This document shows, piece after piece, positions 29,322-50,205 of a stretch of DNA of 64,000 nucleotides. The DNA comes from an uncultured Acidobacteriota bacterium (GTDB lineage: Bacteria > Acidobacteriota > UBA6911 > RPQK01 > CBDAPI01), in the NCBI GenBank assembly GCA_964569605.1, contig CAZMUJ010000071.1:12313-76312 (forward strand), written 5' to 3'. A program made the translations under genes and the position numbers. Positions within the stretch are counted from its first letter, which is position 1. Each line of letters begins with the position of its first letter. The notes beneath the pieces are model-generated. The model did no database searches, was not told where the DNA came from, and worked only from the letters and a program-made list of their open reading frames with translations.

Positions 29322-31108
29322 GGAATAGTCTCCTGTTTCATAGCAGATCTGCTACTTCGAATGTATTCTTCGAACTCATCCCGAAATTTAGTGATGTAGG
29401 ATTGAACTGGCCATGCAGCGGCATCTGCAAAAACACATATTGTCTTGCCCTCCATATCTTTAGCGATGGCAAGAAGGTCATCCAAATCCCGCAGACGACC
29501 ATTCCCTCCGACAATGCGACGCATGATTCGATGGACCCATCCAGTGCCCTCACGGCAAGGTGAACATTGTCCACAAGATTCATCTGCGAAAAATCGAGCC
29601 GCAGAGTTAAGTGCCTCTACCATACAGGTACTCTCATCCATCACAATCACTCCCCCTGAACCAGCCATGCTACCTGCTGCAGCCAAGGAATCGAAATCCA
29701 TGGCCACATCGATTTCATCTGCAGTTAGAATCTTGGCTGAAATACCCCCTGGGATGACAGCCTTGAGCTTTTTGCCATCACGAACGCCACCGGCCTTTTC
29801 AATCAGTTTTTCCAGAGTTATGGATACTGGCTCCTCATAAACTCCAGGACAAGCAACATGCCCCGCTACACAGAACAGGCGGGTGCCTCCCTGTGAGGCC
29901 GTCCCAATGGTGGCAAAACGATCCGCTCCATTACGGAGAATAAAAGGGACACAAGCCAGTGTTTCTACGTTATTAACGATGGTGGGAGAGTCAAAAAGTC
30001 CTGAAATTGCAGGAAAGGGGGGCTTGAGCCTGGGAAAACCCTTTCCGCCCTCTAGGGAAGTGAGAAGTGCTGTCTCCTCTCCACAGATATATGCCCCTGC
30101 GCCCCTATGGATAACAATGTCCAGATCAAAACCGGTCTCCTGGATGTCTTTTCCCAACCAGTTTTCAGAATAAGCCTCATCTAGAGCACGCTGCAACCGT
30201 TTAGCCGAGCGAAAGTATTCACCACGAACATAGACATAGCCTTTTTGGCTACCAATGGCAAACGCAGCAATAATCATGCCTTCAATCAGAACATGCGGAT
30301 CACGTTCCATGATGTAACGATCTTTGAACGTGCCCGGCTCACCTTCATCCGCATTTGCCACAAGGTATTTTGCTTTTCCTGGCGCCTTAGGAACAAACGA
30401 CCATTTCCTGCCCGCGGGAAATCCTGCACCTCCAAGACCACGCAGGTTAGGCTTAGAAACTTCCTCAATTACTTTTTCTGGCGTCATAGAGGTCAGAACT
30501 TTCCTTGCCGCCATGTATCCACCATCAGCAATGTAGTCTTTTAGCCAAGTTCCCTTTGGGTTTTTAAAACGGGTAGAGAGCACTGGACCGTTAGTGGAAA
30601 TATATGGCATTGGTTCGGGTAGTGGCGAAGAATCTTCTGGGGGCTTGAGGGCCTCCCGAAGAACAAGCTCTAGGGTTTTACCTTTTAAAGGACCAATAAA
30701 GGTTTCATCGAGTTGGGCCATAGGTGACATTTCGCATGCACATAGACACTCTACTTCGGAGAGAGTAACTTCCCCTCCGGGGGTGGTCTCCCCCGGGCTA
30801 ATTCCCAAACTGTTTTGGATTTTGACTAAAACATCCGAAGCACCACGCAACAAACAGGGCAAACTCGTACACACCCGAAGCTCGCGACGGCCAACTGGCT
30901 TCATATGAAACATGCCATAAAAAGAGACCGCCTCATGTACCTGAGTCCGCGATACACCAAGGACTTTCCCCACCCAGACTTCTGCTTCTTGAGAGATATA
31001 CCCAAAGTTTTCCTGGACAAGCCATAACAACGGCAACATGGCTGCCTTACTTTTCTCATAACGCTTCAAAATCTCTTGGGCTTTGGACTGCAAATCGGAA
31101 ATTTTCAC
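29309..31108 (-). CDS. nuoEF: fused NuoE-NuoF (24 kDa 2Fe-2S subunit + 51 kDa FMN/NADH subunit)
   Basis: N-terminal roughly 165 aa carry NuoE Cys ligands (CTSLPC ... CLCAC). The remainder carries NuoF motifs GLGGAGFPAGRKW and ESCGQCSPCREG. It is a single 599-aa ORF with no internal stop. Confidence 0.85.
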   Translation of the reverse strand: MKISDLQSKAQEILKRYEKSKAAMLPLLWLVQENFGYISQEAEVWVGKVLGVSRTQVHEAVSFYGMFHMKPVGRRELRVCTSLPCLLRGASDVLVKIQNSLGISPGETTPGGEVTLSEVECLCACEMSPMAQLDETFIGPLKGKTLELVLREALKPPEDSSPLPEPMPYISTNGPVLSTRFKNPKGTWLKDYIADGGYMAARKVLTSMTPEKVIEEVSKPNLRGLGGAGFPAGRKWSFVPKAPGKAKYLVANADEGEPGTFKDRYIMERDPHVLIEGMIIAAFAIGSQKGYVYVRGEYFRSAKRLQRALDEAYSENWLGKDIQETGFDLDIVIHRGAGAYICGEETALLTSLEGGKGFPRLKPPFPAISGLFDSPTIVNNVETLACVPFILRNGADRFATIGTASQGGTRLFCVAGHVACPGVYEEPVSITLEKLIEKAGGVRDGKKLKAVIPGGISAKILTADEIDVAMDFDSLAAAGSMAGSGGVIVMDESTCMVEALNSAARFFADESCGQCSPCREGTGWVHRIMRRIVGGNGRLRDLDDLLAIAKDMEGKTICVFADAAAWPVQSYITKFRDEFEEYIRSSRSAMKQETIPCLD

Positions 31109-32481
31109 CGGTCGAGCTCTCCACCAATCATATTGACTGACCCAAAAGTTGGGACTAAATCTGCGAGCATGTCACCGACTAAAAGCTTGGGTAAAGCCGA
31201 CATAATTGCGAAACAAGGCGGCCGAACTCTAACCCTATAAGCACGGCTAGTCCCATCACTTACAACGTAGAAGCCTAGTTCCCCATTCGCCCCTTCCACT
31301 GGAAAATATACCTCTCCTTTGGGAGGGCTGAGACCATGACCATACATAACCAGTTTAAAGTGGTGCATTAATCCCTCAATGTTGCCATAAGTGTCTTCTT
31401 TAGGAGGCAGAAAGGCTCTCTTTTCGTCAGTAGCTATAGAAGGATGTTGGGAGCGGCCAGAACCTTCAAGCGTTGGAGCAACCACAGCATTTCCGTCCGA
31501 TATAGCAGCTATGTTGCCGATCTTTGCCAGATCCACCATCTCTGCAGCGGGGATGGGCTTTCCTGTTTCAGGGTGGACCTGTAGTGGCCCAGCTGGGATA
31601 TCCTGAAGTGCCATCTCCACAATTCGCATTGACTGCTCCATTTCCTCCATACGCACCAGATATCGATCCATGTTATCCCCTTGGGTCCCAATAGGAACTT
31701 CAAAAGGAATCCGGTCATAAACAGCATAAGGACAATCCTTACGTACATCATAGTTTGCGCCACTTGCACGAAGAAAAGGTCCAGTTATCCCATAGGAAAT
31801 AGCGTCCTCTGCCGAGATGATACCAGTTCCATTCATTCGATCTGTAAAGATCCGATTGCGAGTGAGAAGGCCGGATGCCTCATCCAGAACTTTCCGGGTT
31901 TCCTTGAATGCCTTTTGGCAAGCCTCTGAAAACTCCTCTGGAAGATCAGCCTTCACACCACCTACGCGGCAGTAGCTAACCGTCAGACGGGCACCAGATA
32001 CCATCTCAACCAACTCCCAAAGATATTCCCGGGCCTTAATCATGTAGAGAAACACACTGAAAGCACCCAGTTCCATGGCAGTAGCCCCCACACACGTAAG
32101 ATGGTCCGAGATTCGGGAAATCTCTGAGAGAATGACCCTTATGTAGTGACAACGTTCCGGAACTGAAATTCCCAAAAGTTTCTCAATGGTCATACAATAG
32201 CCCATGTTGTTAATGAGTGGAGAAACGTAGTTGAGGCGGTCTGTGTAAGGAATCACACCATTGTAGTCCACTACTTCTGCCATCTTCTCAAAGCCACGGT
32301 GAAGATAACCAATTTCCACATCAGTATTTTGAATCTTTTCGCCATCGAGCCCTGCCACAATCCTAACAATCCCATGCATTGCTGGGTGTGCGGGCCCTAT
32401 GTTAAGCATCATATCCCGCGTCTCAAGATCTGTTGCAGAACTTTGTGCGGTTTCCCTAGGTGAGTCTGAATCTAAAGTCAT
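31105..32481 (-). CDS. nuoD: NADH-quinone oxidoreductase subunit D (49 kDa)
   Basis: 458-aa ORF resembling NuoD (49 kDa subunit). It has an N-terminal extension of about 25-45 aa before the conserved NIGPAHPAMHG block, and its stop overlaps the nuoEF start. Confidence 0.9.
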   Translation of the reverse strand: MTLDSDSPRETAQSSATDLETRDMMLNIGPAHPAMHGIVRIVAGLDGEKIQNTDVEIGYLHRGFEKMAEVVDYNGVIPYTDRLNYVSPLINNMGYCMTIEKLLGISVPERCHYIRVILSEISRISDHLTCVGATAMELGAFSVFLYMIKAREYLWELVEMVSGARLTVSYCRVGGVKADLPEEFSEACQKAFKETRKVLDEASGLLTRNRIFTDRMNGTGIISAEDAISYGITGPFLRASGANYDVRKDCPYAVYDRIPFEVPIGTQGDNMDRYLVRMEEMEQSMRIVEMALQDIPAGPLQVHPETGKPIPAAEMVDLAKIGNIAAISDGNAVVAPTLEGSGRSQHPSIATDEKRAFLPPKEDTYGNIEGLMHHFKLVMYGHGLSPPKGEVYFPVEGANGELGFYVVSDGTSRAYRVRVRPPCFAIMSALPKLLVGDMLADLVPTFGSVNMIGGELDR

Positions 32482-33105: not shown

Positions 33106-33647
33106 TTTTTGAAGATTTCTGGCCGATTTTCAGGTGATGGACGCTCACTTGTTGTGTGCTCCATTTGAATTTTTTCCTGCAGTTTCATTAGTCCATCAAG
33201 AACATTTTCCGGTCTTGGAGGGCAACCTGGAATGTAAACATCCACAGGTAAGATTGTGTCTATGCCCATCACCGTTGCGTAGTTGTCATAGAAACCACCC
33301 GTACATGTACAGACTCCAAAAGCTACGACCCATTTTGGCTCAGCCATCTGATCGTGGATTCGTTTCAAGATTGGTGCCATTTTGTGACTAATAGTACCAA
33401 CTACAAAAAGAACGTCAGCCTGACGAGGAGAAAATCTTGGAAGACCAGCTCCAAAGCGATCGACGTCGTAGTGGGAACAAGCTGTGGCCATATATTCCAT
33501 TCCACAGCACGCTGTAACAAATGGGTACTGAAAAATGGAGAATTTTCTGGCCCATCCAAGAGCCTCTTCAAAACGACTAGTCACAAATAACTTATTATCT
33601 AGCATCTTATTGCCATTCCAGTGCACGGTTGACCCAAGCGTAAACAA
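33102..33647 (-). CDS. nuoB: NADH-quinone oxidoreductase subunit B (20 kDa, N2 cluster)
   Basis: Motifs CCGMEYMA and GCPPRPE. Confidence 0.9.
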   Translation of the reverse strand: MFTLGSTVHWNGNKMLDNKLFVTSRFEEALGWARKFSIFQYPFVTACCGMEYMATACSHYDVDRFGAGLPRFSPRQADVLFVVGTISHKMAPILKRIHDQMAEPKWVVAFGVCTCTGGFYDNYATVMGIDTILPVDVYIPGCPPRPENVLDGLMKLQEKIQMEHTTSERPSPENRPEIFKK

Positions 33648-33960
33648 AACCTACCATTAGAACCCCAAGGAAAATACCCATTTCCACTAAACCCAACACT
33701 CCGAGCTGACGGTAGACAACGGCCCAAGGGTAGAGGAAAACAAGTTCAACATCGAACAAAATGAACAAAATGGCTGTGAGGTAGAACTTGATAGCCAGCT
33801 TTCCACCGGGAAGAGCAAAAGGGGTTTTCCCACATTCAAAAGGCTCTAACTTCACCACAGAGGGATTTTTTTTGCCCAGTGTAGAAGCCAAAAATATCAT
33901 TAGCCCAGTAATCCCTCCGGCCAAAACAAAAGCCACTACAATACCAAGATACTCAGTCAT
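33607..33960 (-). CDS. nuoA: NADH-quinone oxidoreductase subunit A
   Basis: 117-aa three-TM protein with a NuoA-like FDVELVFLYPW motif. Confidence 0.8.
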   Translation of the reverse strand: MTEYLGIVVAFVLAGGITGLMIFLASTLGKKNPSVVKLEPFECGKTPFALPGGKLAIKFYLTAILFILFDVELVFLYPWAVVYRQLGVLGLVEMGIFLGVLMVGFVYAWVNRALEWQ

Positions 33961-34050: not shown

Positions 34051-35472
34051 TCATGGTGCCACTGTCCAAGACATTAGACTGCCCGGAAAAACACCACCAA
34101 TCACAGTAACCAGAGCAGCCAATACTAGAGCGAAAGATACCGCAAAAGAGTAGCTCTGAGGCTCCACATCATGAGCTTTGTGCATATACATCAAGACTCC
34201 AATTCTCAAATAGACAAAGGCTGAAATCACACTGCAAACTACTGCTAGAACAGCCAGGGAAAGATAACCCTCTCGTACAACGCTGAGGATGACACCAAAC
34301 TTTGCGGAGAAACCGGCCGTCGGTGGAATTCCTGTCAGAGACAAGAGAAAAAGCATCATCAAAGCTGCGATGCCTGGCCGCTGTTCCGCTAAACCCCGGA
34401 AACCCTTAAGAGTTTCGCCTCGCGAACCCAGTGCAATAACAATCCCAAAAGCACCTAGTGTCATAAATACATATAGAAAAGCATAGACCATAGTGGAAGA
34501 AATGCCTTCGGGGGTCCCTGAAATGAGCCCCAAAAGAGCATACCCTGCATGTGAGATTGAGGAATATGCAAGCAATCGTTTCATATTGGTCTGTGCAAGA
34601 ATAACGAAGCTCCCAAAGACGATAGATAGAGCAGCAATCACTGCAAGGATCAAAGCAAGGACATCGGCTTCAGAAACAAACGCGATTAAGCTGATCCGAC
34701 CTAGAACTGCTAGACCAGAAACTTTTGCTGCAGTCGCTAAAAATGCAGCGACCGGAACGCTCGCACCCTGGTAGGCGTCTGGGGCCCAGGCGTGAAAAGG
34801 AACCGCTGCAATCTTAAAGGTAAGTCCAGCAACCAACAAGCCAATCCCAACCAGAAGTATTGGATTACTGCCCAAATTCTCCTTGGACAGAGTTTCAGCA
34901 ATTTCTGTAAATGCGGTAGAGCCCGTCGTTCCGTAGACAAGAGCAATGCCATAAAGAAGAAAAGCTGAGGCAAAAGACGCAACAAGAAAATACTTAATAG
35001 CAGCCTCATTTGATCGCCGCTTCTCCACCGTGATACCGACCAAACTATAGGAGCACAGTGTCATCAACTCCAGACCCAAATATAAAGTCAAGAGATCCAA
35101 GGCTGAGACTGCAAACATCATTCCTATTGACGCTAAAAGAAGTAACGCATGGTACTCAGCAAACCGAAAACGCATTGTTCCGACAGGCCTGACAGAAAGA
35201 ATTATGACTAGGGCAAGTGCCACTGTAATTAAAACCTTAAAAAATTGGGAGTAACTATCTACGACAATCATGCCCCCAAACCCAGTTTGGGAACTCGGGG
35301 TCAGTACCCATCCTGAAGCCAAACCAGCAGCCAGCACTGAAAAAACAGCTAGCAAAGAGATTTGAGGGAGGTTCTGAATTCGGTGCCCTACAAGAAGAAA
35401 AATAAAGGAAAAAATGCAGAGAATTAACTCCGGCCAGATTAAGGTTAAATCTGAAAGACTCGCTACGTTCAC
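34051..35472 (-). CDS. nuoN: NADH-quinone oxidoreductase subunit N (antiporter-like)
   Basis: 473-aa antiporter-like protein with a NuoN-type motif WAPDAYQGASVPVAAFLATAAK. Confidence 0.75.
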   Translation of the reverse strand: MNVASLSDLTLIWPELILCIFSFIFLLVGHRIQNLPQISLLAVFSVLAAGLASGWVLTPSSQTGFGGMIVVDSYSQFFKVLITVALALVIILSVRPVGTMRFRFAEYHALLLLASIGMMFAVSALDLLTLYLGLELMTLCSYSLVGITVEKRRSNEAAIKYFLVASFASAFLLYGIALVYGTTGSTAFTEIAETLSKENLGSNPILLVGIGLLVAGLTFKIAAVPFHAWAPDAYQGASVPVAAFLATAAKVSGLAVLGRISLIAFVSEADVLALILAVIAALSIVFGSFVILAQTNMKRLLAYSSISHAGYALLGLISGTPEGISSTMVYAFLYVFMTLGAFGIVIALGSRGETLKGFRGLAEQRPGIAALMMLFLLSLTGIPPTAGFSAKFGVILSVVREGYLSLAVLAVVCSVISAFVYLRIGVLMYMHKAHDVEPQSYSFAVSFALVLAALVTVIGGVFPGSLMSWTVAP

Positions 35473-36932
35473 GGGGTGACTCCTCCAGCCAAAAGTTCTG
35501 CTACAGGAGCATGAAGATACGAAAGCACAAGTTCAGGGTAGAGCCCAAGACACAAGGCTAGTAAGACGAGAGGGGTAAGAGTAGCCACTTCACGAATGCT
35601 GAGCTCAAGTTGCAGACTTTCTAGTCCAGGATTAGTCTTTCCCATAACCATTCGATAAAAAAGCCAAACCAAGTAAGCAGTTCCGAGTACCACTCCCCAG
35701 ACAGCCATCACCCCTAACCATACTCTAGTTTGGAAAGCACTACTGATAATCAGAAACTCACCTACGAAGGCATTCAAGCCTGGGAATCCAGTCGCTGCTA
35801 GGCAAAAAAATGCTAGAAAAGAAGAATAGACCGGTGCCGCCCTGCCAACCCCCCCGTAGTCCTTAATTTCACGCGAGTGAGTACGTTCGTATATCATGCC
35901 TACACATAGGAAAAGCCCTGCAGAAAGAATACCGTGGTTGATCATCTGCAAGATCGCTCCTTCCACTCCACTCTGATTAAGAGTAAATATTCCCAGGGTT
36001 ACAAATCCCATGTGGCTTATGCTCGAAAAAGCAATAAGTCGTTTGACATCGGTTTGGACCAGTGTGACATAGGCCCCATAGACAATAGCCACCGCTGAAA
36101 TGAAAAGCATGGGCGTAAGGAATATTTGCACTGCCTCGGGCAAAATAGGAAGTGAAATCCTAAGAAATCCGTAGGCTCCCATCTTAAGAAGAATGCCAGC
36201 TAAAATAACACTTCCTGCCGTCGGGGCTTCTGTATGTGCATCCGGGAGCCAGGTGTGCACCGGAAACATTGGAACCTTAACAGCAAATGCTGCCAAAAAG
36301 GCCACAAAAAGCCAGACTTGGAAGCTGGGCTGAAGCTGGAAAGAACTTAGAGCCTTGAAGTCCAGAGTTCCACAATTATGATAGAGAGCGATCATGCCCA
36401 CTAACATCAAAACACTTCCTGCCAGTGTAAAAATCAAGAACTTGACTGCTGCATAGACTCGTCCCAAGCCTCCCCAAATACCAATAAGAAGAAAAAGAGG
36501 CACGATCATCAGTTCCCAAAAGATGAAAAAGAGAAACAAATTTGTGGCAGCAAAGAGCCCAACCATTGCGGTTTCAGCAACTAGAAGCGCAGCATAAAAC
36601 TCCTTGGTTCTGGTTTGCACTGCTGTCCATGAGCCACACACACAAAGAATGCTCAAAACAGTTGCGAGAAAAATAAATGGAAGACTAATACCATCCACTC
36701 CCATGCCATAGGAAACATTCCAATTCGGAATCCACTCTGCCATCTCAATGAATTGAAGTGCACTAGAGGATTTCTCAAAGCTCCAATAAAGAGGTGTTGA
36801 GAGCGTCAATGTCAATAAGGTCGTGCCCAATGCAATCCAGCGTGTATATCGTTCGTGGGCAACGAACAGAATTATCAAAGCCCCTAAAAATGGCAGAAAG
36901 GTTGTAACCGTTAGAACAGGATAGTCTGTCAT
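35469..36932 (-). CDS. nuoM: NADH-quinone oxidoreductase subunit M (antiporter-like)
   Basis: NuoM-type motif WLPDAHTEAPTAGSVILAGILLK. Start trimmed to MTDYPV so that ATG overlaps the upstream stop as ATGA. Confidence 0.75.
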   Translation of the reverse strand: MTDYPVLTVTTFLPFLGALIILFVAHERYTRWIALGTTLLTLTLSTPLYWSFEKSSSALQFIEMAEWIPNWNVSYGMGVDGISLPFIFLATVLSILCVCGSWTAVQTRTKEFYAALLVAETAMVGLFAATNLFLFFIFWELMIVPLFLLIGIWGGLGRVYAAVKFLIFTLAGSVLMLVGMIALYHNCGTLDFKALSSFQLQPSFQVWLFVAFLAAFAVKVPMFPVHTWLPDAHTEAPTAGSVILAGILLKMGAYGFLRISLPILPEAVQIFLTPMLFISAVAIVYGAYVTLVQTDVKRLIAFSSISHMGFVTLGIFTLNQSGVEGAILQMINHGILSAGLFLCVGMIYERTHSREIKDYGGVGRAAPVYSSFLAFFCLAATGFPGLNAFVGEFLIISSAFQTRVWLGVMAVWGVVLGTAYLVWLFYRMVMGKTNPGLESLQLELSIREVATLTPLVLLALCLGLYPELVLSYLHAPVAELLAGGVTP

Positions 36933-38698
36933 GATGATCTGATAACCAGTAAAGCACAAAGCGCGAGAACCGCTACTGCCATGATCAACCCATAGTGCTG
37001 AGCATTCCCACTCGCTGTGGTTCTCAGTGCCTGACTGAGAATCTGGGCTAGACGACCTACGCCTAGCATTGTTGAATCGACGACTCGTGTATCAAAATTG
37101 CGTAGGAAGTTGGCTACTCCTAACATGGGAGTTTTGATTAAACATTCATAGAATTCAGCTACATATCTAGACTCTAGACGTTCCAAAGGGCCCCGTATAA
37201 CCTTCATCGCACCCTCCGCTCCACGACGGTAAAACCAATCCGTATCGAGACTAATTTTTGGCTCTGGATCTAAATGCTTTAACAGTAGAAAAAACCCTAA
37301 TGCTGTAAATCCAAGCATAGCCAAGGTGCTAGTGATATGTTGCAGGGTGTAAGGAACATAATAAACAGAGTGTGGAAGGTGTTGGTAAAGTAATCCTGGA
37401 AAAACCCCAATCAATACACAGCCCAGTGCCGCCAGGCCCATGGCAATAATCATGTTTTTAGGCGGTTCTTCAGCGCGTAGGCCTGAGTCCTTTCCGAAGA
37501 ACATATAGTAGGGAAGCTTTAGGCCCGTGTGTAAAAATGTCCCCGCTGACGCCAAAGTTAACATGAGAAAAATCCATCCCAGATGAGCTTCAGCAGCAGC
37601 AGTCACTACCATAGACTTACTGACAAATCCACTGAAAAAAGGCATTGCTGAAATAGCAAAGGCTCCCACCATATAGAGTCCGAGTGTAATGGGCATAGTC
37701 CGGTACAACCCCCCCATATCACTGAGTTTTCGAAAATGGGTCATCTCCAAAACGGCTCCAACTCCCATAAAGAGAAGAGCCTTGTAAAGAATATGTGCAA
37801 AAGCATGCGCGGTAGCACCGTTCAAAGCTAGAGAGCTTCCAATGCCTACGCCGCAAACCATGTAACCAACCTGGCTAATGATATGGTATGCCAATAGACG
37901 CCGTGCGTCGTTTTCCAAAACGGCATAGACGACGCCGTAAATAGCCATTATGGCTCCTGCCCATATCAATAGTTCAGTGCCTGCAAATCCTCGAATCAAA
38001 GCATATACCGAAGATTTAGTAGTAAAGGCAGTCATAAAAACCGCACCGGTAACTGTTGCCTCTGGATAAGCATCCGGAAGCCACGCTCCAAGAGGTGGAA
38101 CAGCGGCGTTTATGAGAAAAGCAAGAAGTATTAGGGTCCAGGCCGGACCCCAAGAAAAAGCCTCCATGTCCTCAAAGACAATGGATCCTGTTTGAGACCA
38201 CTGGACTACAATTCCTGCAAGGAGAAGTAGACCACCAAACAAGTGGATTAACAGGTAACGAAAACCGGCTTTTACGGCGTTAGGTTTGCGACGCAACCAC
38301 AGAAGAAGAACTGAAGAGATTGCCATGAGTTCCCAAAATAGGAGAAGGGAAAGAAGGTCTCCAGCAAACGTAACACCGAGGGCACTACCTGCATAGGTTA
38401 AGGCCGTCACGTGCTGAGCAACTTGCTTAACATGTAGTGCATATATTATCCCCAAAAGAGTCATAATCGAGAAAATATAGGAAAAAACAAGGCTCAATTG
38501 GTCCACCCGGCCAAATACGAGATCTTGGCCAAGAAAATGTACCTGGCCATATATGCCCGGTGTCATTCGGAAGCAAGCGATTAGAGCAACGGCAGGCAGA
38601 AATAGCAATGCATACCTTCTCAGCCGACCTTTAAGCACGGGCAGGGCCCAAGCACCGAAAATAAGTAGTAATCCGGGATGAACCCACTCAAGAGTCAT
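36929..38698 (-). CDS. nuoL: NuoL-like antiporter subunit with C-terminal TM + long amphipathic helix + terminal TM
   Basis: 589-aa protein. N-terminal region is NuoL/MrpA-like. The C-terminal architecture (TM, about 100-aa amphipathic segment, final TM) matches the NuoL horizontal helix. The core motif is WLPDAYPEATVTGAVFMTAFTTK. Confidence 0.65.
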   Translation of the reverse strand: MTLEWVHPGLLLIFGAWALPVLKGRLRRYALLFLPAVALIACFRMTPGIYGQVHFLGQDLVFGRVDQLSLVFSYIFSIMTLLGIIYALHVKQVAQHVTALTYAGSALGVTFAGDLLSLLLFWELMAISSVLLLWLRRKPNAVKAGFRYLLIHLFGGLLLLAGIVVQWSQTGSIVFEDMEAFSWGPAWTLILLAFLINAAVPPLGAWLPDAYPEATVTGAVFMTAFTTKSSVYALIRGFAGTELLIWAGAIMAIYGVVYAVLENDARRLLAYHIISQVGYMVCGVGIGSSLALNGATAHAFAHILYKALLFMGVGAVLEMTHFRKLSDMGGLYRTMPITLGLYMVGAFAISAMPFFSGFVSKSMVVTAAAEAHLGWIFLMLTLASAGTFLHTGLKLPYYMFFGKDSGLRAEEPPKNMIIAMGLAALGCVLIGVFPGLLYQHLPHSVYYVPYTLQHITSTLAMLGFTALGFFLLLKHLDPEPKISLDTDWFYRRGAEGAMKVIRGPLERLESRYVAEFYECLIKTPMLGVANFLRNFDTRVVDSTMLGVGRLAQILSQALRTTASGNAQHYGLIMAVAVLALCALLVIRSS

Positions 38699-38951
38699 AA
38701 TATTCTTCCCGGCGCAGGAGCAAAGCTTTTCCTATTAATTTGGATACAACTATTATCACCATACAAGAAAACAATCCGTAAATAGCTCCCCAGCCTGGCA
38801 AGTCTTCAAACCAGAAATGGCCGTGAACACCGTGAAACAAACGAGGCAAAATAATTTCTCCAACTGCCACAAACACAAGGCCGACATAAAACCAAAACTT
38901 AAGATGTGCCAAACGGAATTGGTTCCTAAAAAAGTTTTTCGGTAACTTCAT
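38688..38951 (-). CDS. small two-TM membrane protein embedded in nuo cluster
   Basis: 87-aa ORF with two hydrophobic helices. It has 4-nt overlaps with the upstream antiporter-like gene and 11-nt overlap with the nuoL start, which suggests translational coupling. Confidence 0.45.
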   Translation of the reverse strand: MKLPKNFFRNQFRLAHLKFWFYVGLVFVAVGEIILPRLFHGVHGHFWFEDLPGWGAIYGLFSCMVIIVVSKLIGKALLLRREEYYDS

Positions 38952-40408
38952 TGCGTAACCCTCATCGCCAATTCCAACACAGGGGTTGGGTAGAGCCCTA
39001 GAAGAAGGCTTGCTGCAGCACTAATGGTTAGAGGTACAACCATCCAAGGAACTTCGTGAATCTCTTCGTTGGTCTTTTGAGCCCGTTCAAAATATGCTTT
39101 GTAAACAACAGGCCCAAGATAAGCTGCATTGAGAAACGAGCTTACTAGGAGTATCGCTAGCAGCGGGAAACTTTGCAACTCAATTGCTCCAAGAGCCAGG
39201 TACCATTTCGAAATACCCCCAGAAGTTCCTGGTATTCCTATTACACTTAGTGAGGCAATCGCAAAGGCTGCCATTGTCCACGGCATACGCCTTGCCAAGC
39301 CAGACATTTGACTAATTTCTGTTTTATGCGTTGACACATAAATAGAACCTGCACATAAGAAAAGTGTGATCTTAGATACAGCATGATTAGTGATGTGAGC
39401 AACCCCACCCAAAATCCCGCTATAATTCAGAAGTGCTGCGCCCAAAATTATGTAAGAAAGTTGGCTCACAGTGGAAAAAGCTAGCCTTGCCTTAAGGTTG
39501 TCTTGGCTAAGAGCCAGGATCGAACCAAATAGTATAGTTATAGCTGCAGCGCCCAGCGCAAGTTGGTCCGCTTTGATTTCACGCATTGCGTCAGAACCAA
39601 AAACAAACAAAAACACACGCAGCGTGGCAAACACACCGGTTTTGACTACGGCAACAGCATGCAACAATGCACTTACCGGGGTAGGTGCGACCATGGCGGC
39701 AGGCAACCAGCTATGCAAGGGGAAAAGTGCATTCTTAGCAAATCCAAACAGGAACAAACCAAAGATCAGAAAGAGGAGAAGTGGATAGGATGCAATATCA
39801 TTAGCGTTTAGCATCCCACCTTTTTGAAACTCAAGAGTTCCGGTAACATTGTAGATCAGTACAATGGCAGCTATGAGAAAAAGCTTGGCCGTCCCCAAAA
39901 GATAAATAACATACTTGCGGGCGCCCGACCTGGCCTCAGCCGTTTCCTTATGACTCACCAAGGGATAGGTGACCAAGGTTAACGCCTCATAAAAGAGAAA
40001 CAGCGTGAAAAGATTCTTTGAGAAGGCGACTCCTATGGTTGCGGCAAGAGCCAGGGCAAAGCAAGAAAAGTAACGAGTTTGTGCATGCTCTTCAAGAGAA
40101 CGCATGTACCCGATTGAGTAAAACGAGGTAAGAATCCACAACACCGTAGCTCCAGATGCAAAGAGAAGCCCAAAAGCATCCACGCGAAAAGCTAGTTCGA
40201 TTCCAGGCAAAAGTTTGAAGAGCAAAAATTCCGGCATATTACCTACGAGAACCGCTGGGATCATACTAGCCACTAATGCAACCATTGATACGCCGGCAGC
40301 AATAGACCAGAACTCTCTAAGGTTTGGTCTGGACTTGCCTGTGCACGCAATCAATAGGGCGCCAGCAGCAGCAACTAAAATCACGAGAAGAGGAGTAATC
40401 GTATTCAC
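38948..40408 (-). CDS. additional antiporter-like subunit (NuoL/MrpD-type core, no long C-terminal helix)
   Basis: 486-aa protein with a FYEAL block and the motif WLPAAMVAPTPVSALLHAVAVVKTG (Asp of WLPDA replaced by Ala). It is the fourth antiporter-like ORF in the cluster. Confidence 0.7.
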   Translation of the reverse strand: MNTITPLLVILVAAAGALLIACTGKSRPNLREFWSIAAGVSMVALVASMIPAVLVGNMPEFLLFKLLPGIELAFRVDAFGLLFASGATVLWILTSFYSIGYMRSLEEHAQTRYFSCFALALAATIGVAFSKNLFTLFLFYEALTLVTYPLVSHKETAEARSGARKYVIYLLGTAKLFLIAAIVLIYNVTGTLEFQKGGMLNANDIASYPLLLFLIFGLFLFGFAKNALFPLHSWLPAAMVAPTPVSALLHAVAVVKTGVFATLRVFLFVFGSDAMREIKADQLALGAAAITILFGSILALSQDNLKARLAFSTVSQLSYIILGAALLNYSGILGGVAHITNHAVSKITLFLCAGSIYVSTHKTEISQMSGLARRMPWTMAAFAIASLSVIGIPGTSGGISKWYLALGAIELQSFPLLAILLVSSFLNAAYLGPVVYKAYFERAQKTNEEIHEVPWMVVPLTISAAASLLLGLYPTPVLELAMRVTQ

Positions 40409-40433: not shown

Positions 40434-40742
40434 TCACCATTTAAGGTCAGTCAAATCGGCCACACTTGCCCCAGGGTTGTTTCTATTCAAAGCTATCACT
40501 AACCCTAGTCCAACCCCCACCTCTGCTGCCGCCACTGCAATAACAAAAAGGGCCAAAATCTGCCCTCTTGGATCATTAAGATGACAACTGAATCCAGCAA
40601 GACTAAGGTTTACCGCATTTAACATAATTTCAACTGAAATCAACATAAGGATAAGGTTGCGACGGGCCAGAAACCCAAACACACCTACACCAAAAAGGAT
40701 CGCACTAAGGGCTAGTACTGTTCCCAAAGGAACTATCATCAC
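40434..40742 (-). CDS. nuoK: NADH-quinone oxidoreductase subunit K
   Basis: 102-aa three-TM protein with conserved Glu positions (SVEIM, AAAEVG). Confidence 0.85.
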   Translation of the reverse strand: MMIVPLGTVLALSAILFGVGVFGFLARRNLILMLISVEIMLNAVNLSLAGFSCHLNDPRGQILALFVIAVAAAEVGVGLGLVIALNRNNPGASVADLTDLKW

Positions 40743-41287
40743 TCAGTCCTCCTCTTGGCAAGAATAACTGCACTAACAATGGCAGCTAAGAGGATTAGAG
40801 AAGTTATCTCAAAAGGAAGTGCAAAAGGACCAAAAAGAGCAAGGCCTGTTTCTGAAAGACTACCTAAGGACGATCCCTGCTCCAAGGAGGAGAGCCGATT
40901 TTCCACAACGACTTGAGGGGAACTATTTTCAACCGGGTCAAATGTCTCAATCAAGGATAGCCAAGCTAGAGCTCCAAATCCTAAACTCCCAAGAATAGCG
41001 AAAGGCCAATGACGCCCATACTTTGACTGAGCTCCCTCACCGGATAAATCAAGTAGCATCAAAACAAAAAGGTAAAAAATCAAGATAGCCCCAGCGTAAA
41101 CAATCACTTGAACTGCCGCCAGAAACTCTGCTCTTAATAAAAGAAAAAGGCCCGCTATATGCAAGAAGAGCGCCAGAACCCAGAGCATACTGTGGACAGG
41201 GTTCTTACGAGTTACAGCCAAAATGGCACTAGTGACACTACCAAGCGCCAAATAATAAAAGGCAATCTGTGCAGTAAAAAAGATCAT
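40739..41287 (-). CDS. nuoJ: NADH-quinone oxidoreductase subunit J
   Basis: 182-aa protein with NuoJ motifs (NPVHSML, VIVYAGAILIF); 4-nt overlap with nuoK. Confidence 0.85.
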   Translation of the reverse strand: MIFFTAQIAFYYLALGSVTSAILAVTRKNPVHSMLWVLALFLHIAGLFLLLRAEFLAAVQVIVYAGAILIFYLFVLMLLDLSGEGAQSKYGRHWPFAILGSLGFGALAWLSLIETFDPVENSSPQVVVENRLSSLEQGSSLGSLSETGLALFGPFALPFEITSLILLAAIVSAVILAKRRTE

Positions 41288-41851: not shown

Positions 41852-42349
41852 ATGAAATTGAGAATTAGCCTAATTGCAATAAGTTTCGTTCTTAGCTGTT
41901 GTTTGAAGACCGGACAGGATCCACCTCGCTCTCTTGAATTTACACTCAACAATCTTGCCTGGCTAGAAGGCTTATGGACAGGAGTGGGATTTGAGGGAAC
42001 TGTAGAAGAATACTGGAGCGCACCAGCAGGAAAATCCATTACAAGCATGGTTCGAATTGTAGTAGCCGGTCAGACTCGTGTAATTGAGTTACGTATGCTG
42101 CGCGAAGACTCCCAAGGCGTTATTTTAACCCTGAAGCGCTTCACCCACACACTACAACCTTGGGAGCAGGCTCCTCTTGAATACCGACTAGTAGGATTAA
42201 GTCGGTCGAAGGCCGTTTTTGACTGTAGTACGGCCCAGGAGAACTTACCCGACAAAATTATCTATTTACTTGCCAAAGGAAAATTGACAATTGAATGGCA
42301 ATCAAGCGGGAAAAAGACTACAAAACTCAACCTTGCAAAGGCAGGGTGA
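41852..42349 (+). CDS. hypothetical lipoprotein
   Basis: Lipobox VLSCC after the signal peptide. 165 aa; no family recognised. Confidence 0.4.
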   Translation: MKLRISLIAISFVLSCCLKTGQDPPRSLEFTLNNLAWLEGLWTGVGFEGTVEEYWSAPAGKSITSMVRIVVAGQTRVIELRMLREDSQGVILTLKRFTHTLQPWEQAPLEYRLVGLSRSKAVFDCSTAQENLPDKIIYLLAKGKLTIEWQSSGKKTTKLNLAKAG

Positions 42350-43158: not shown

Positions 43159-43956
43159 TTAGAATTGTCTTTGCTTGATTTTCATTACTAGCTGGGTCTT
43201 GTCCTTTCCTGAAAGCTCGGCTGGCATAATTTTTTCGGCAACATCTAGTGCCAACGAATATTCCCCCAATAATTCATAACAATTAATAAGACCAAGCTTC
43301 GCCTGGAGACGAAAGTTAGAACTCTGAGATTCCCGAACTACCATATTGAAATGCTCAATCGATTTGTCGTAATGATTAGTCAAAGACAGAATCACTCCCA
43401 TTCGAAGACGTACTTGAGCCTTGACTTCCTGTAAAGGATTTAGCTCCAGTAGATTGTTGAAGATCGCCAAGGCGGACACAAACTTCTTCTGTTTAAACAG
43501 AACATTTCCGATTGCAAACAATGCTTTCCTGGATTGCTCTGATCCCGAATCAATTTCAAGGTAGTCGTACCTGAGCTGGTTTGCCTTTTCTAACTCACGC
43601 ATGTCTACTTCATAGATGTCAGCAATTTTCAACATTGCTTTAGCTGCAAGTTCATTCCCCTGACACGAATTCAGAAGACTATCAAATAGACTCAAAGATT
43701 TGCCCGTGTTTCCGATCTCTGAATACTCGATCAAGGCCATTTCCCAAATTGACTGGCAGGAAGCAGGTGTGCCAGGATAATCTGTCACGATACGATCATA
43801 CAGAGCTAGGGCATCCATGATTTTTCCCGTTTTTTCAAAAGACTGAGCTTTTAAGAATAACTTCTCAGGATGGGCCTCCCGTTGGTTAGTCACCAAGACA
43901 GCCCAGGCAAGCATCAAAAGTGGCAGTCCGAAAACTCCACGATTAACAAGTCTCAT
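43159..43956 (-). CDS. TPR-repeat protein
   Basis: Signal peptide plus TPR-like repeats. Its stop overlaps the gyrA end by 4 nt. Confidence 0.5.
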
Positions 43957-46451
43957 TCTTCGCTCTCTTCAGAGAGTTTTTCTTCGCTCTCTTCAGAGAG
44001 TTTTTCTTCGTGAGCTTCCTCACTGGAAGAAATTAGGCTCACGTCTGCAACTCGGTCTTTTTTGCCCAGTTCAATTAGTTTCACTCCCTGGGCACTGCGA
44101 GACAGTGTCAACCGAATCTGATCGACTGGAAGACGAATTAGTTTGCCGTTTTTGGTAATTATCATAATATCGGACTCGTCATCGGTTAGAAACGAGGTGA
44201 TAACATTTCCGTTTCTTTCTGAGGTCCGAATATTGATTACGCCCTGACCTCCACGGCCTTGTCTTCGATATTTATCTATAGGAGTTCTTTTCCCGAATCC
44301 ATATTCTGTAACAGCCAAAAGGTCCTTGCGTTCTGGGTCGACTATTTCCATACCGATTAACTGATCTCCCTGTCGAAGTCTGATCCCTCGGACACCTCGA
44401 GCCGTGCGACCCATGGTTCGAACCTGTTCTGAATTAAATCGGATGGCCTTTCCCTTCTCAGAAAACAGCATAATATCCCGCTCATCTTCAGCAAGAGCAA
44501 CACTCATGACTTCATCTCCCTTATCGACCCCACAGGCAATAATCCCGGAAGAACGAGGGTGAGAATAAGCCTTCAATGGAGTTTTCTTTACATAACCTTT
44601 GAGAGAAGCTGTTACCACTTGCAACGGACCTTCAAAATCATGGACATTCAATATATCGGCAACTCGATCATCGGGATCAATATCAATCAGATTAACGATC
44701 GGTTTTCCTTTTCCTGTTGTCCCAACTTCGGGAATCTTCCAGGCCTTAAGCCAATGAAGCTTTCCGCGGATGGTAAAGATAAGCATATAACTGTGAGTCG
44801 AGGCAACGAAGAGATCGGCGATACTGTCTTCCTCCGTTCTCGTGGACATCCCAATACGTCCTTTTCCACCACGATGCTGGCTCTTGTATGTTTTCAAGGA
44901 AGTTCGTTTGATGTAACCGTTACGACTGGCAGTGATCACCATTTGCTCTTCAGCAATCAAGTCTTCCATGGAAAGATCAATTTGTGTATCCACGATCTCA
45001 GTTCGACGAGGGCTCTTGAAATCATCTTTAATCTTTATTAATTCATCACGAATAACGTCTCGGAGCGCTGAATCTTTTTCGAGAATCTTACGAAGCTGGG
45101 AAATTGTCTTTTGGAGGCGACTGGACTCCTGCTCAATCTTCTCTCGCTCTAGTCCTGTCAGCCGTTGTAACCGCATCTCTAAGATAGCTTTTGCCTGGAC
45201 TTCAGTTAAATTGAACTTCTGGATGAGCTCCTTTTTTGCTTCGATTGGATCCTGGGCCTTTCGTATGAGTTCTATTATCTGGTCAAGGTGGCTGAGAGCA
45301 ATCCGCAGACCATCTAAAAGATGGGCTTGTTTTTCCGCCTTGGCCAGTTCAAAAGCCGTGCGACGCCTTACAACGTTTTTTCTGTGTTGCAGGAAATGAT
45401 TAATGACTTCTATAAGGGAAAGTACTCTGGGGCGGCCTTCAACAATGGCAAGCATAATAATGCCGAAGGAAGACTGAAGTGATGTTGCTTTGTAGAGAGA
45501 GTTTAGGACAATTTGAGGATGTTCTCCTCGCTTTAATTCAATAACCACACGCATGCCACGACGATCACTTTCATCCCTCAAATCACTGATACCTTGGATC
45601 TTTTTTTGATTCACAAGCTGAGCTATTTTTTCTACCAACCTAGCCTTATTTACCTGATATGGAAGCTCGTAAATAATTATTGATTCTCGATCCTTTCCTA
45701 GTGGCTCAAATTCGGTCCGGGCCCTCATGTGAATAATTCCTCGTCCCGTCTGATAAGCACTATGGATTCCTTGCCGGCCATAAATAAAAGCACCGGTAGG
45801 AAAATCAGGACCGGGAATCAGATCAAGGACTTCTGACATAGAAACATTGTCCCTATCAAGCATAAGAAGCGCTGCATCTACAACTTCGCTTAAATTGTGA
45901 GGTGGTATGTTGGTAGCCATACCGACAGCAATGCCAGAAGTTCCATTAACTAAGAGGTTCGGAAACCGCGCAGGTAATACAGTCGGCTCACTCAAAGATT
46001 CATCATAGTTGGGAACAAAGTCGACCGTATTTTTGTCAATGTCAGCCATGAGCGTGGCAGAAATTTTTGCCATTCGGACTTCTGTGTACCGCATGGCAGC
46101 CGGGGAATCTCCATCGATGGAGCCGAAATTTCCCTGACCGTCCACAAGGATCTCTCGCATAGAAAAACCCTGTGCCATTCGGACCATGGTTTCGTAGACA
46201 GCAGAATCGCCGTGAGGGTGATATTTTCCAATCACGTCCCCAACGATCCGTGCCGATTTTTTGTGAGCACGGTTAGATGTATTAGACAGCTCTTGCATAG
46301 AATAAAGAATTCTTCTATGCACCGGCTTGAGACCATCCCTTATGTCAGGCAGGGCCCTTCCGATGATCACGGACATTGCGTAATCCAAGTAGGATGAACG
46401 CATTTCGTCTTCAATGTTGACCGGTAATTCGTTTGCTTTGGGTTCAGTCAT
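43953..46451 (-). CDS. gyrA: DNA gyrase subunit A
   Basis: N-terminus [32 protein letters not shown] includes the active-site Tyr region. 832 aa, ending in an acidic repeat tail. Confidence 0.95.
43956..44010. repeat. 24-bp tandem direct repeat (about 2.3 copies) encoding the EEKLSEES acidic tail at the gyrA 3' end
   Basis: ttcttcgctctcttcagagagttt recurs at 43956 and 43980, with a partial third copy at 44004. Confidence 0.6.
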
Positions 46452-46484
46452 TCAACAACCCCAGAAGAATCTGGAGAAAAAGTA

Positions 46485-48923
<2,439 letters not shown>

Positions 48924-49044
48924 TCAAGAGTATTATATTTTAGCATAGACCCCCGGCTGGAAAGAGTCGATTCTTATTCAGAAAATTCCTACTAAACAAC
49001 TGAACTGTAAAGACTTTTGGATTTTTAAAAAGAAGTAGAAAATT

Positions 49045-50154: not shown

Positions 50155-50205
50155 TACTCATTCCCCCCGTTCGGATTTTGCCGTAAATGGACTACAGCGG
50201 AATAA

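What the first reader, a model, noticed from the sequence alone, without database searches (positions are those of the whole stretch)
38688..40408. Extra (fourth) antiporter-like subunit plus a coupled 87-aa two-TM ORF inserted between nuoK and nuoL
Complex I normally has three Mrp-antiporter-like subunits (L, M, N). This cluster encodes four, of 486, 589, 496 and 473 aa. The 496 and 473 aa proteins carry clear NuoM-type (WLPDAHTEAPTAGS) and NuoN-type (WAPDAYQGASVPV) motifs. The 589-aa protein has the NuoL architecture (TM, long amphipathic helix, TM at the C-terminus) but an atypical core motif. The 486-aa protein has a NuoL/MrpD-type core (PTPVSALLHA) in which the conserved Asp of WLPDA is replaced (WLPAAM). 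It is followed by a tightly overlapped 87-aa protein with two predicted TM helices. One interpretation is an augmented proton-pumping module resembling the reported complex I variants with an extra antiporter subunit. Those reported clusters carry a second nuoM; here the extra subunit is L/MrpD-like and sits at a different position.
Basis: partly seen in the sequence, partly recalled or inferred. Interest (0 to 1): 0.7.

Follow-up and report, generated by a model that had tools for sequence, protein, structure and literature searches.

The report
Four-antiporter 'green' complex I operon
The window carries a respiratory complex I operon in which the usual NuoL gene is replaced by two Mrp-type antiporter-like genes plus a small conserved membrane protein; this is real, but it is the already described 'green complex I' layout, seen here in a probable Acidobacteriota genome.

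Summary
On the minus strand the operon reads nuoJ-K-[486 aa]-[87 aa]-[589 aa]-M-N-A-B-C-D-EF-G-H-I. It has four antiporter-like subunits (APLS) and no canonical nuoL. The 87-aa ORF is a real gene. It is translationally coupled on both sides, has 175 close homologues, and matches 722 representative clusters.

The layout is not new. Rhizobial plasmids carry the same gene order, including an 84-aa homologue of the small ORF. The literature calls this 'green complex I', in which two MrpD-like subunits replace NuoL. Identity to the Ensifer proteins is 52% (486 aa), 39% (87 aa) and 56% (589 aa).

- **Distribution:** the cassette sits in the same position in all 82 related genome loci, mostly Acidobacteriota.
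- **Possibly undescribed, gene pairing:** the small protein is paired with a 589-type gene in every locus examined. This holds in nuo clusters, Mrp antiporter operons, cytochrome bd-like clusters and likely archaeal clusters.
- **Possibly undescribed, missing lysine:** every 589-type protein has Asn in place of the TM7 lysine of canonical pumps.
- **Lateral helix:** the 589-aa protein carries a NuoL-type lateral helix without the 26-residue extension seen in five-APLS clusters.

The physical order of the two extra subunits and the proton stoichiometry remain unresolved.

The parts
40739..41287 (-). nuoJ (182 aa), first gene of the rearranged operon
   Evidence: Pfam Oxidored_q3 1.2e-36; NCBIfam NuoJ models
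40434..40742 (-). nuoK (102 aa)
   Evidence: Pfam Oxidored_q2 6.4e-27; NF004320 104 bits, above cut-off 57
38948..40408 (-). 486-aa antiporter-like subunit ('MrpD1' of green complex I). It has a NuoL/MrpA-like core (TM8 His250 and Lys256) and no lateral helix.
   Evidence: Proton_antipo_M 2e-56 plus a weak, sub-threshold Proton_antipo_N match (24.1 bits, cut-off 24.5). NF006236 at 630 bits, just below its 663 cut-off. E141, K225, H250, K256, H338, H342, K346 and K401 are invariant in 77 orthologues. 52% identity to Ensifer WP_203529632.1. It is the best tblastn match of E. coli NuoL in the window.
38688..38951 (-). 87-aa helical-hairpin membrane protein, a conserved partner of the 589-type subunit
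   Evidence: 175 homologues; 722 representative clusters; AF2 hairpin H6-38/H54-86 at pLDDT 66; 39% identity, E 1e-19, to the Ensifer 84-aa hypothetical protein WP_025431453.1 at the same position; ATGA and 11-nt overlaps with its neighbours
36929..38698 (-). 589-aa antiporter-like subunit ('MrpD2'). It carries a NuoL-type TM15, lateral helix and TM16, and has Asn197 in place of the TM7 lysine.
   Evidence: NF009310 734 bits. C-terminus aligns without gaps to NdhF 577-650 and with one gap to Nqo12 530-602. Helices 452-476, 486-560 and 567-588. N197 in 77/78 orthologues and in all 59 more distant family members. 56% identity to the Ensifer protein.
35469..36959 (-). nuoM (496 aa)
   Evidence: TIGR01972 580 bits, cut-off 264
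34051..35472 (-). nuoN (473 aa)
   Evidence: TIGR01770 411 bits, cut-off 333
33607..33960 (-). nuoA (117 aa)
   Evidence: Orthologue of the Pfam Oxidored_q4 gene at the same position in L001/L002
33102..33647 (-). nuoB (181 aa)
   Evidence: Orthologue of the Pfam Oxidored_q6 gene in L001/L002
32521..33105 (-). nuoC (194 aa)
   Evidence: Orthologue of the Complex1_30kDa gene in L001/L002
31105..32481 (-). nuoD (458 aa)
   Evidence: Orthologue of the Complex1_49kDa gene in L001/L002
29309..31108 (-). fused nuoE-nuoF (599 aa), the NADH/FMN module
   Evidence: Orthologue of the 599-aa 2Fe-2S_thioredx + Complex1_51K + NADH_4Fe-4S gene in L001
27699..29321 (-). nuoG (540 aa, short form)
   Evidence: Orthologue of the Fer2_4 / NADH-G_4Fe-4S_3 / Fer4_Nqo3 gene in L001/L002
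26597..27691 (-). nuoH (364 aa)
   Evidence: BLASTP matches to nuoH-position ORFs in canonical-order loci L077 and L086-L098
25968..26678 (-). nuoI (two 4Fe-4S motifs; the listed TTG start is probably too far upstream, because it overlaps nuoH by 82 nt)
   Evidence: Pfam Fer4 / Fer4_7

Best explanation
This is a 'green complex I' type NADH:quinone oxidoreductase operon.

The peripheral arm (NuoB, C, D, fused EF, G, I) and the proximal membrane part (NuoH, A, J, K, N, M) are ordinary. The distal subunit NuoL is replaced by a three-gene module.

- The 486-aa APLS has a complete set of canonical proton-channel residues and a NuoL/MrpA-like core, but no lateral helix.
- The 87-aa helical-hairpin protein sits between the two APLS genes.
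- The 589-aa APLS supplies the NuoL-type TM15, lateral helix and TM16 clamp, but has Asn in place of the TM7 lysine.

The membrane arm therefore holds four APLS in a row. Quinone reduction at NuoD/B/H would drive the usual charge relay along the central hydrophilic axis through N and M into the two Mrp-type subunits. The lateral helix of the 589-aa subunit would strap the arm together, and the 87-aa protein would be an accessory subunit bound to the 589-type subunit.

What is shown: the gene content, the conservation, homology to the rhizobial green complex I, the shared module in Mrp operons, and the residue patterns.

What is inferred: that all three products assemble into complex I, that the enzyme moves about 5 rather than 4 H+ per NADH (or needs correspondingly more pmf when run in reverse), and the physical order of the two extra subunits.
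For: - **Operon anatomy:** four APLS and no nuoL anywhere in 64 kb, with translational coupling at both junctions.
- **Known counterpart:** Ensifer canadensis plasmid pT173d has the same order, nuoJ-K-[MrpD family, 487 aa]-[hypothetical, 84 aa]-[Na+/H+ antiporter D, 586 aa]-M-N-A-B-C-D-E-F-G. Identities to the window proteins are 52%, 39%, 56%, 50% and 42%. 118 plasmid records, mostly Sinorhizobium, Rhizobium and Ensifer, hold a 589-type homologue.
[quoted passage not shown] The rearranged gene order and upregulation in symbiosis are summarised in PMC7415380.
- **Synteny:** J-K-486-87-589-M-N holds in 82/82 genome loci and in canonical-order nuo clusters from metagenomes.
- **Selection:** the 486 and 589 families are as conserved as NuoM (mean top-residue frequency 0.87, 0.85 and 0.86).
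- **Lateral helix:** NuoL-type. Clusters with a second nuoM (L084, L162) carry about 26 extra residues in this helix, as published for Manganitrophaceae.
- **Separate clades:** the 486 and 589 proteins form their own clades apart from E. coli NuoL, NuoM and NuoN.
Against: - No protein-level evidence shows that the three products are in the complex.
- The 589-type subunit lacks the TM7 lysine of the Glu/Lys pair present in all characterised pumping APLS. It may not be a fourth pump.
- The AF2 model of the 589-aa protein has low confidence (pLDDT 52), and no multimer model could be made.
- The TM15-TM16 linker is only about 13 residues longer than in E. coli NuoL (92 vs 79). The helix cannot obviously span a whole extra subunit and still reach the canonical anchor site.
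- From general knowledge: if the organism uses menaquinone, as most Acidobacteriota do, 5 H+ per NADH would be thermodynamically hard in the forward direction.
Confidence: 0.75

Rival explanations
1. Functionally split NuoL with no extra pump. The 486-aa protein does the job of the NuoL core and the 589-aa protein mainly contributes the lateral-helix clamp and a passive relay. Having lost the TM7 lysine, it would not pump, so the stoichiometry stays near 4 H+/2e-.
For: E. coli NuoL matches the 486-aa core best and the 589-aa core worst among the four APLS (120 vs 81 bits). Only the 589-aa protein has the lateral helix. TM7 Lys to Asn is universal in the 589 family.
Against: All other channel residues of the 589-aa protein (E123, K228, H298, H302, K306, K361) are invariant, and the protein is as conserved as NuoM. 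That is more than a mere strut would need. In likely archaeal clusters two or three 589-type proteins occur together without a 486-type partner.
Confidence: 0.3
2. Mrp-derived cation module. The 486/87/589 unit keeps an Mrp-like antiport or Na+-related role, so the enzyme couples NADH oxidation to Na+/H+ exchange rather than simply pumping one more proton.
For: The same three-gene unit follows MnhE-MrpF-MnhG-MbhE-like-MnhB-MnhC-MrpD in Mrp operons (L158, L133). Public annotation calls both proteins Na+/H+ antiporter subunit D.
Against: In solved Mrp and MBS complexes the Na+ path is assigned to the small MrpA-C-terminal/B/C/E/F/G-type subunits, while the APLS carry protons (PMC8165549, PMC7419157). 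None of those small Mrp subunits is encoded in this operon.
Confidence: 0.1
3. The three genes are an independent antiporter inserted into the nuo operon and are not part of complex I. Alternatively, the 87-aa ORF is an annotation artefact.
For: None beyond the database names ('Na+/H+ antiporter subunit D', 'hypothetical protein').
Against: The operon would then lack any NuoL and any lateral helix. The position between nuoK and nuoM is fixed in 82/82 genome loci across several phyla, and in clusters with either gene order. The 87-aa family has invariant residues and conserved length across 722 clusters.
Confidence: 0.03

Closest known systems
Green complex I of rhizobia (Degli Esposti & Martinez-Romero 2016; e.g. 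Ensifer canadensis pT173d, Sinorhizobium/Rhizobium megaplasmids)
   Same: Identical gene order J-K-MrpD1-small ORF-MrpD2-M-N-A-B-C-D-E-F-G. Two MrpD-like subunits replace NuoL. The small hairpin ORF is present. MrpD2 has a lateral helix without the 26-residue insertion. Identities are 39-56%.
   Different: The host is a probable Acidobacteriota chromosome next to dnaA-dnaN-gyrB-gyrA, not a symbiosis plasmid. Here nuoE and nuoF are fused and nuoG is short (540 vs 872 aa). Here nuoH-I follow nuoG on the same strand, whereas in Ensifer they lie on the opposite strand.
Manganitrophaceae Complex_I_3 (PMC9040806)
   Same: The same MrpD1/MrpD2 pair replaces NuoL. Metagenome loci L084, L085 and L162 found here look like this type.
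   Different: Complex_I_3 has a second NuoM (five APLS) and a 26-residue insertion in the MrpD2 lateral helix. The window has one NuoM and no insertion.
2M complex I (Chadwick et al. 2018; Nitrospira, Chloroflexi, Acidobacterium capsulatum)
   Same: Four APLS in a complex I, with proposed higher H+/e- or use in reverse electron transport.
   Different: 2M keeps NuoL, with its helix extended by about 26 residues, and duplicates NuoM. Here NuoL is replaced, there is a single NuoM, and a small extra subunit is present.
Group 3 Mrp antiporters with several MrpD genes (PMC5703873)
   Same: The same 486-type / small ORF / 589-type unit occurs at the end of Mrp operons (L158, L133).
   Different: Those operons encode MrpE, F, G, B, C and an MrpA-C-terminal-like protein and have no redox module.
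MbsH / MbsH' of the Pyrococcus furiosus MBS complex (PDB 6U8Y)
   Same: These are the best solved-structure matches: 486 aa to MbsH (150 bits) and 589 aa to MbsH' (118 bits). As here, one APLS lacks and one carries the lateral helix with TM15-16 (PMC8165549).
   Different: Similarity is only remote. MbsH' keeps the TM7 lysine (K217, PMC8165549). No equivalent of the 87-aa protein was detected in any solved structure.

Membership tests
Green complex I | Canonical nuoL absent; two MrpD-like APLS genes between nuoK and nuoM | tested here: met
   Definition as quoted in PMC9040806.
Green complex I | Rearranged operon order, with nuoJ-K-...-M-N placed before nuoA-G | tested here: met
   Window order equals the Ensifer pT173d order. 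The rearrangement is noted in PMC7415380.
Green complex I | Orthology of both MrpD-like proteins to the rhizobial ones | tested here: met
   52% and 56% identity. Both fall in the same NJ clades as Ensifer D1/D2, apart from NuoL, NuoM and NuoN. The tree is small and distance-based.
Green complex I | Small hairpin ORF between the two MrpD-like genes (seen in the rhizobial record; not known to be part of the published definition) | tested here: met
Green complex I | Assembly of the products into an active NADH:quinone oxidoreductase; physiological role | not testable with these tools
   Needs biochemistry
2M complex I | Second nuoM gene | tested here: not met
   Only one ORF reaches the NuoM models, and there are four APLS in all
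2M complex I | About 26-residue insertion in the lateral helix | tested here: not met
   No insertion relative to Ensifer MrpD2. The insertion is present in the 2-nuoM loci L084 and L162.
Canonical NuoL (tested for the 589-aa protein) | TM15, lateral helix and TM16 C-terminal extension | tested here: met
Canonical NuoL (tested for the 589-aa protein) | Score above the curated NuoL model cut-offs; conserved TM7 lysine | tested here: not met
   NF005141 166 bits (cut-off 556) and TIGR01974 149 bits (cut-off 407.5). Asn197 occupies the TM7 Lys position.
Canonical NuoL (tested for the 486-aa protein) | Lateral helix; score above the NuoL cut-offs | tested here: not met
   The protein ends after TM14. 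NF005141 scores 208 bits (cut-off 556).
Mrp antiporter operon | MrpE, F, G, B (and MrpA C-terminal domain) subunits encoded alongside | tested here: not met
   The neighbours are nuo genes only. Compare L158, which has all of them.

The most novel reading that the evidence does not exclude
The 87-aa hairpin protein and the lysine-less, helix-bearing 589-type APLS form an unrecognised obligate two-gene unit. This unit has been plugged into at least four kinds of membrane complex: green complex I, group-3 Mrp antiporters, cytochrome bd-like 'TO_2' clusters, and likely archaeal clusters made only of APLS genes. On this reading the small protein is a genuine, undescribed subunit. The 589-type subunit would work differently from canonical pumps, because it has no TM5-Glu/TM7-Lys pair. 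Green complex I would then not simply be 'complex I plus one more pump'.
Probability: 0.4. Interest if true: 0.55.

Novelty: new member of a known kind. Interest (0 to 1): 0.35.

Why it matters
Complex I variants with extra antiporter-like subunits bear on how many protons the enzyme moves per electron pair and on how the coupling signal travels along the membrane arm.

This window adds nothing categorically new. The layout is the published green complex I. Three points from this work may still be useful:

- The variant is widespread outside rhizobia. It appears in many species-level Acidobacteriota genomes, and in Planctomycetota, Gemmatimonadota-like, Actinomycetota and Nitrospirota MAGs.
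- Public records label its two large subunits as Na+/H+ antiporter subunit D, which hides it from complex I surveys.
- It contains a conserved small subunit and a pump-like subunit that naturally lacks the TM7 lysine. That natural variant would be informative for current models of complex I coupling if a structure or a stoichiometry measurement were obtained.

Tried and rejected
- **Family and structure searches for the 87-aa protein:** Pfam, NCBIfam and a PDB profile search found nothing. hhalign against NuoK, NuoA and the 589 family showed no relationship. The idea that it is a split-off NuoL TM15/TM16 hairpin or a NuoK/MrpC relative is unsupported.
- **Structure of the 589-aa protein:** the AF2 prediction from a 28-sequence alignment had pLDDT 52. 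It was used only for secondary-structure boundaries, and no fold search was run on it.
- **Key papers not held:** the Chadwick 2018 and Degli Esposti 2016 papers could not be read. Their content is cited only through papers that quote them.
- **Failed metagenome scan:** the first scan, with a broad alignment, failed for lack of a conserved stretch. It was repeated with a narrower alignment.
- **Trans-acting lysine idea:** I considered that the conserved Lys71 of the small protein replaces the missing TM7 Lys. Lys71 and Glu32 lie near the predicted membrane boundaries, and 589-type paralogues without their own small gene also lack the lysine. I judge this weak.
- **Physical order from helix length:** inconclusive. 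The linker is +13 residues relative to E. coli NuoL, and the helix length is the same in 3-APLS Mrp and 4-APLS nuo contexts.
- **MBS/Mbx origin:** MbsH and MbsH' are the best PDB hits, but the scores are barely above those for Mrp and ND5.
Full report
**1. What is in the window**

On the minus strand, downstream of dnaA-dnaN-gyrB-gyrA, lies one long operon:

| Gene | Coordinates |
|---|---|
| nuoJ | 40739-41287 |
| nuoK | 40434-40742 |
| 486-aa ORF | 38948-40408 |
| 87-aa ORF | 38688-38951 |
| 589-aa ORF | 36929-38698 |
| nuoM | 35469-36959 |
| nuoN | 34051-35472 |
| nuoA, B, C, D, fused nuoEF, G, H, I | follow downstream |

Pfam finds Proton_antipo_M in exactly four proteins. BLAST of all window ORFs, and tblastn with E. 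coli NuoL, find no fifth one. NCBIfam places the 496- and 473-aa proteins firmly in NuoM and NuoN.

The 589-aa protein passes the curated cut-off of NF009310 'Na+/H+ antiporter subunit D' (734 bits vs 564). The 486-aa protein falls just below that of NF006236 (630 vs 663). Both score far below the NuoL cut-offs.

The 486-aa stop and 87-aa start overlap as ATGA. The 87-aa stop overlaps the 589-aa start by 11 nt.

**2. The 87-aa ORF is a gene**

- It has 175 close homologues, nearly all exactly 87 aa long, with 23 invariant columns in a 24-sequence alignment.
- An exhaustive profile search finds 722 representative clusters, nearly all small proteins (most about 50-135 aa).
- Distant members share an acidic residue late in TM1, a PGF/PGW loop, a lysine in TM2 and a C-terminal EDYYD tail.
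- AF2 predicts a helical hairpin, H6-38 and H54-86, at pLDDT 66.
- It matches nothing in Pfam, NCBIfam or the PDB. It shows no profile similarity to NuoK, NuoA or any part of the 589 family.

**3. Conservation of the arrangement**

A scan of one genome per species returned 124 loci, of which the best 80 were kept. With two loci from contig look-ups, all 82 show J-K-486-87-589-M-N, usually followed by A-B-C-D-EF-G.

The record titles are mostly Acidobacteriota (Vicinamibacteria, Bryobacterales, Terriglobia). There are also Planctomycetota, Longimicrobiales, Acidimicrobiia and Thermodesulfovibrionia MAGs. The closest listed relative of the window's 589-aa protein in a named record (80% identity) is from an uncultured Acidobacteriota MAG. 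The host is therefore probably an acidobacterium; this is an inference.

In the Thermodesulfovibrionia locus and in many metagenome contigs the operon has the canonical order ...G-H-J-K-486-87-589-M-N. The cassette occupies the nuoL slot whichever gene order the operon has.

**4. Anatomy of the two large proteins**

The 486-aa protein keeps every canonical channel residue. These are TM5 E141, TM7 K225, TM8 H250 and K256, TM11 H338/H342/K346 and TM12 K401, all invariant in 77 orthologues. It has a weak, sub-threshold match to the NuoL/MrpA-type N-terminal domain and ends after TM14. It is the best match of E. coli NuoL in the window.

The 589-aa protein keeps E123, K228, H298, H302, K306 and K361. 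At the TM7 lysine position it has Asn197, in 77 of 78 orthologues and in all 59 more distant family members from every genomic context.

Its C-terminus is TM15 (452-476), a long helix (486-560) and TM16 (567-588) (low-confidence model, used for boundaries only). Residues about 508-582 align without gaps to NdhF 577-650 and with one gap to Nqo12 530-602 (weak E-values but a shared motif). It therefore carries a NuoL-type lateral helix.

The linker between TM15 and TM16 is 92 residues, against 79 in E. coli NuoL (boundaries set by eye from hydrophobic segments).

In a small NJ tree the 486 clade, the 589 clade, NuoM, NuoN and E. coli NuoL are all separate. Neither protein is a NuoL orthologue. 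Both families are as conserved as NuoM.

**5. It is a known kind**

[quoted passage not shown] It cites Degli Esposti & Martinez-Romero 2016 for this. PMC7415380 summarises that work: a rearranged gene order, presence in about 70 Alphaproteobacteria, and upregulation in symbiosis.

tblastn of the 589-aa protein against plasmids finds 118 records, mainly Sinorhizobium, Rhizobium and Ensifer, at 55-57% identity. The annotated region of Ensifer canadensis pT173d reads nuoJ, nuoK, 'monovalent cation/H+ antiporter subunit D family' (487 aa), hypothetical protein (84 aa), 'Na+/H+ antiporter subunit D' (586 aa), nuoM, nuoN, nuoA-G. This is the window's order gene for gene.

The 84-aa protein is 39% identical to the window's 87-aa protein, E 1e-19. 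The other identities are 52% (486), 56% (589), 50% (NuoM) and 42% (NuoN).

The same paper describes Manganitrophaceae Complex_I_3, which has two MrpD-like subunits, two NuoM, one NuoN and a 26-residue insertion in the MrpD2 helix. My metagenome loci L084 and L162 have two nuoM genes and carry about 26 extra residues at that place, while the window and Ensifer do not.

**6. Where else the module occurs**

In the metagenome loci, a gene of the 87-aa family lies next to a 589-type gene, and upstream of it in nearly every locus. Three non-nuo contexts appear.

- **Mrp operons.** L158 reads MnhE-MrpF-MnhG-MbhE-like-MnhB-MnhC-MrpD-486-type-small ORF-589-type, and L133 is similar. These resemble the 'group 3' Mrp clusters with several mrpD genes (PMC5703873).
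- **Cytochrome-linked clusters.** L125 and L155 have a 486-type gene, a 589-type gene without the helix, and a small-ORF relative (found in L125). They lie next to a cytochrome bd-like protein and multihaem cytochromes c. This recalls the 'TO_2' complex with two MrpD-like subunits in PMC9040806.
- **APLS-only clusters.** L110, L114, L135 and L142 have the small ORF followed by two or three 589-type genes. Their neighbours look archaeal, including EarA-like and GvpD/KaiC-like proteins.

**7. How it probably works**

The redox arm and the proximal membrane part are conventional. The most economical reading is a membrane arm of four APLS, strapped by the lateral helix of the 589-type subunit. The small hairpin would be an accessory subunit of that subunit. 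The enzyme would have a higher H+/2e- ratio, or a larger pmf demand when run in reverse, as proposed in the literature for this class.

None of this is demonstrated. The order of the two extra subunits is open.

- **For the 486-aa subunit being distal:** its core resembles that of terminal subunits such as NuoL, and the 589-aa helix is not extended by a full 26 residues.
- **For the 589-aa subunit being distal:** in MBS the helix-bearing MbsH' carries the lateral helix and TMH15-16, and the helix spans two antiporter-like proton paths (PMC8165549). I read this as MbsH' spanning MbsH, which is my inference. The helix has the same length in 3-APLS Mrp operons, where spanning two subunits would fit.

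The universal loss of the TM7 lysine argues that the 589-type subunit is not a standard pump. This keeps alive the rival that the pair is a functionally split NuoL with unchanged stoichiometry.

**8. Verdict**

The novelty is low, because this is a new member of the published green complex I kind.

Three details may be undescribed, and they merit a modest interest score:

- the conserved small subunit and its strict pairing with the 589-type gene;
- the lysine-less APLS;
- the breadth of the module across Acidobacteriota and across different complexes.

I could not read the 2016 paper to check whether it already covers these points.

Noticed in passing
L110 7965-14769; also L114, L135, L142, L101, L107: These clusters consist of the small hairpin gene followed by two or three tandem 589-type APLS genes (each about 610-690 aa). 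They have no nuo or mrp small subunits. The neighbours are EarA-like regulators, a GvpD/KaiC-like ATPase and a PAS histidine kinase, which suggests an archaeal origin. The complex they would form is unknown.
   Followed up: partly
L125 4655-10800 and L155 4584-10496: A 486-type APLS and a truncated 589-type APLS (about 500 aa, no lateral helix) lie next to an 812-aa cytochrome bd-like/cytochrome c fusion and several multihaem cytochromes c; a small-ORF relative was found in L125. This resembles the 'TO_2' terminal-oxidase cluster described for Manganitrophaceae.
   Followed up: partly
L084, L085, L162: These nuo clusters have the 486/small/589 cassette plus two nuoM genes (five APLS). They carry an insertion of about 26 residues in the lateral helix of the 589-type protein, matching the published Complex_I_3.
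   Followed up: partly
window 29309-31108 (-): nuoE and nuoF are fused into one 599-aa ORF here and in most of the related Acidobacteriota loci. They are separate genes in the Ensifer green complex I.
   Followed up: no
window 27699-29321 (-): NuoG is short: 540 aa here and about 540-545 aa in L001/L002, against 872 aa in Ensifer. Much of the molybdopterin-like C-terminal domain appears to be missing.
   Followed up: no
window 31105-32481 (-): NuoD is 458 aa, against 404 aa in Ensifer. It seems to have an N-terminal extension and an internal insertion.
   Followed up: no
window 43953-51543 (-): dnaA, dnaN, gyrB and gyrA lie directly upstream of the nuo operon, so the window is at or near the chromosomal replication origin.
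   Followed up: no
window 41852-42349 (+): A DUF6265 protein is encoded on the opposite strand, in the gap between the gyrA-TPR-155 aa genes and nuoJ. About 450 bp of apparently non-coding sequence separates it from the start of nuoJ.
   Followed up: no
public annotation: NCBI and JGI name the 589- and 486-type proteins 'Na+/H+ antiporter subunit D' even inside nuo operons, and the small protein 'hypothetical'. Automated surveys would therefore score these operons as complex I lacking NuoL.
   Followed up: no
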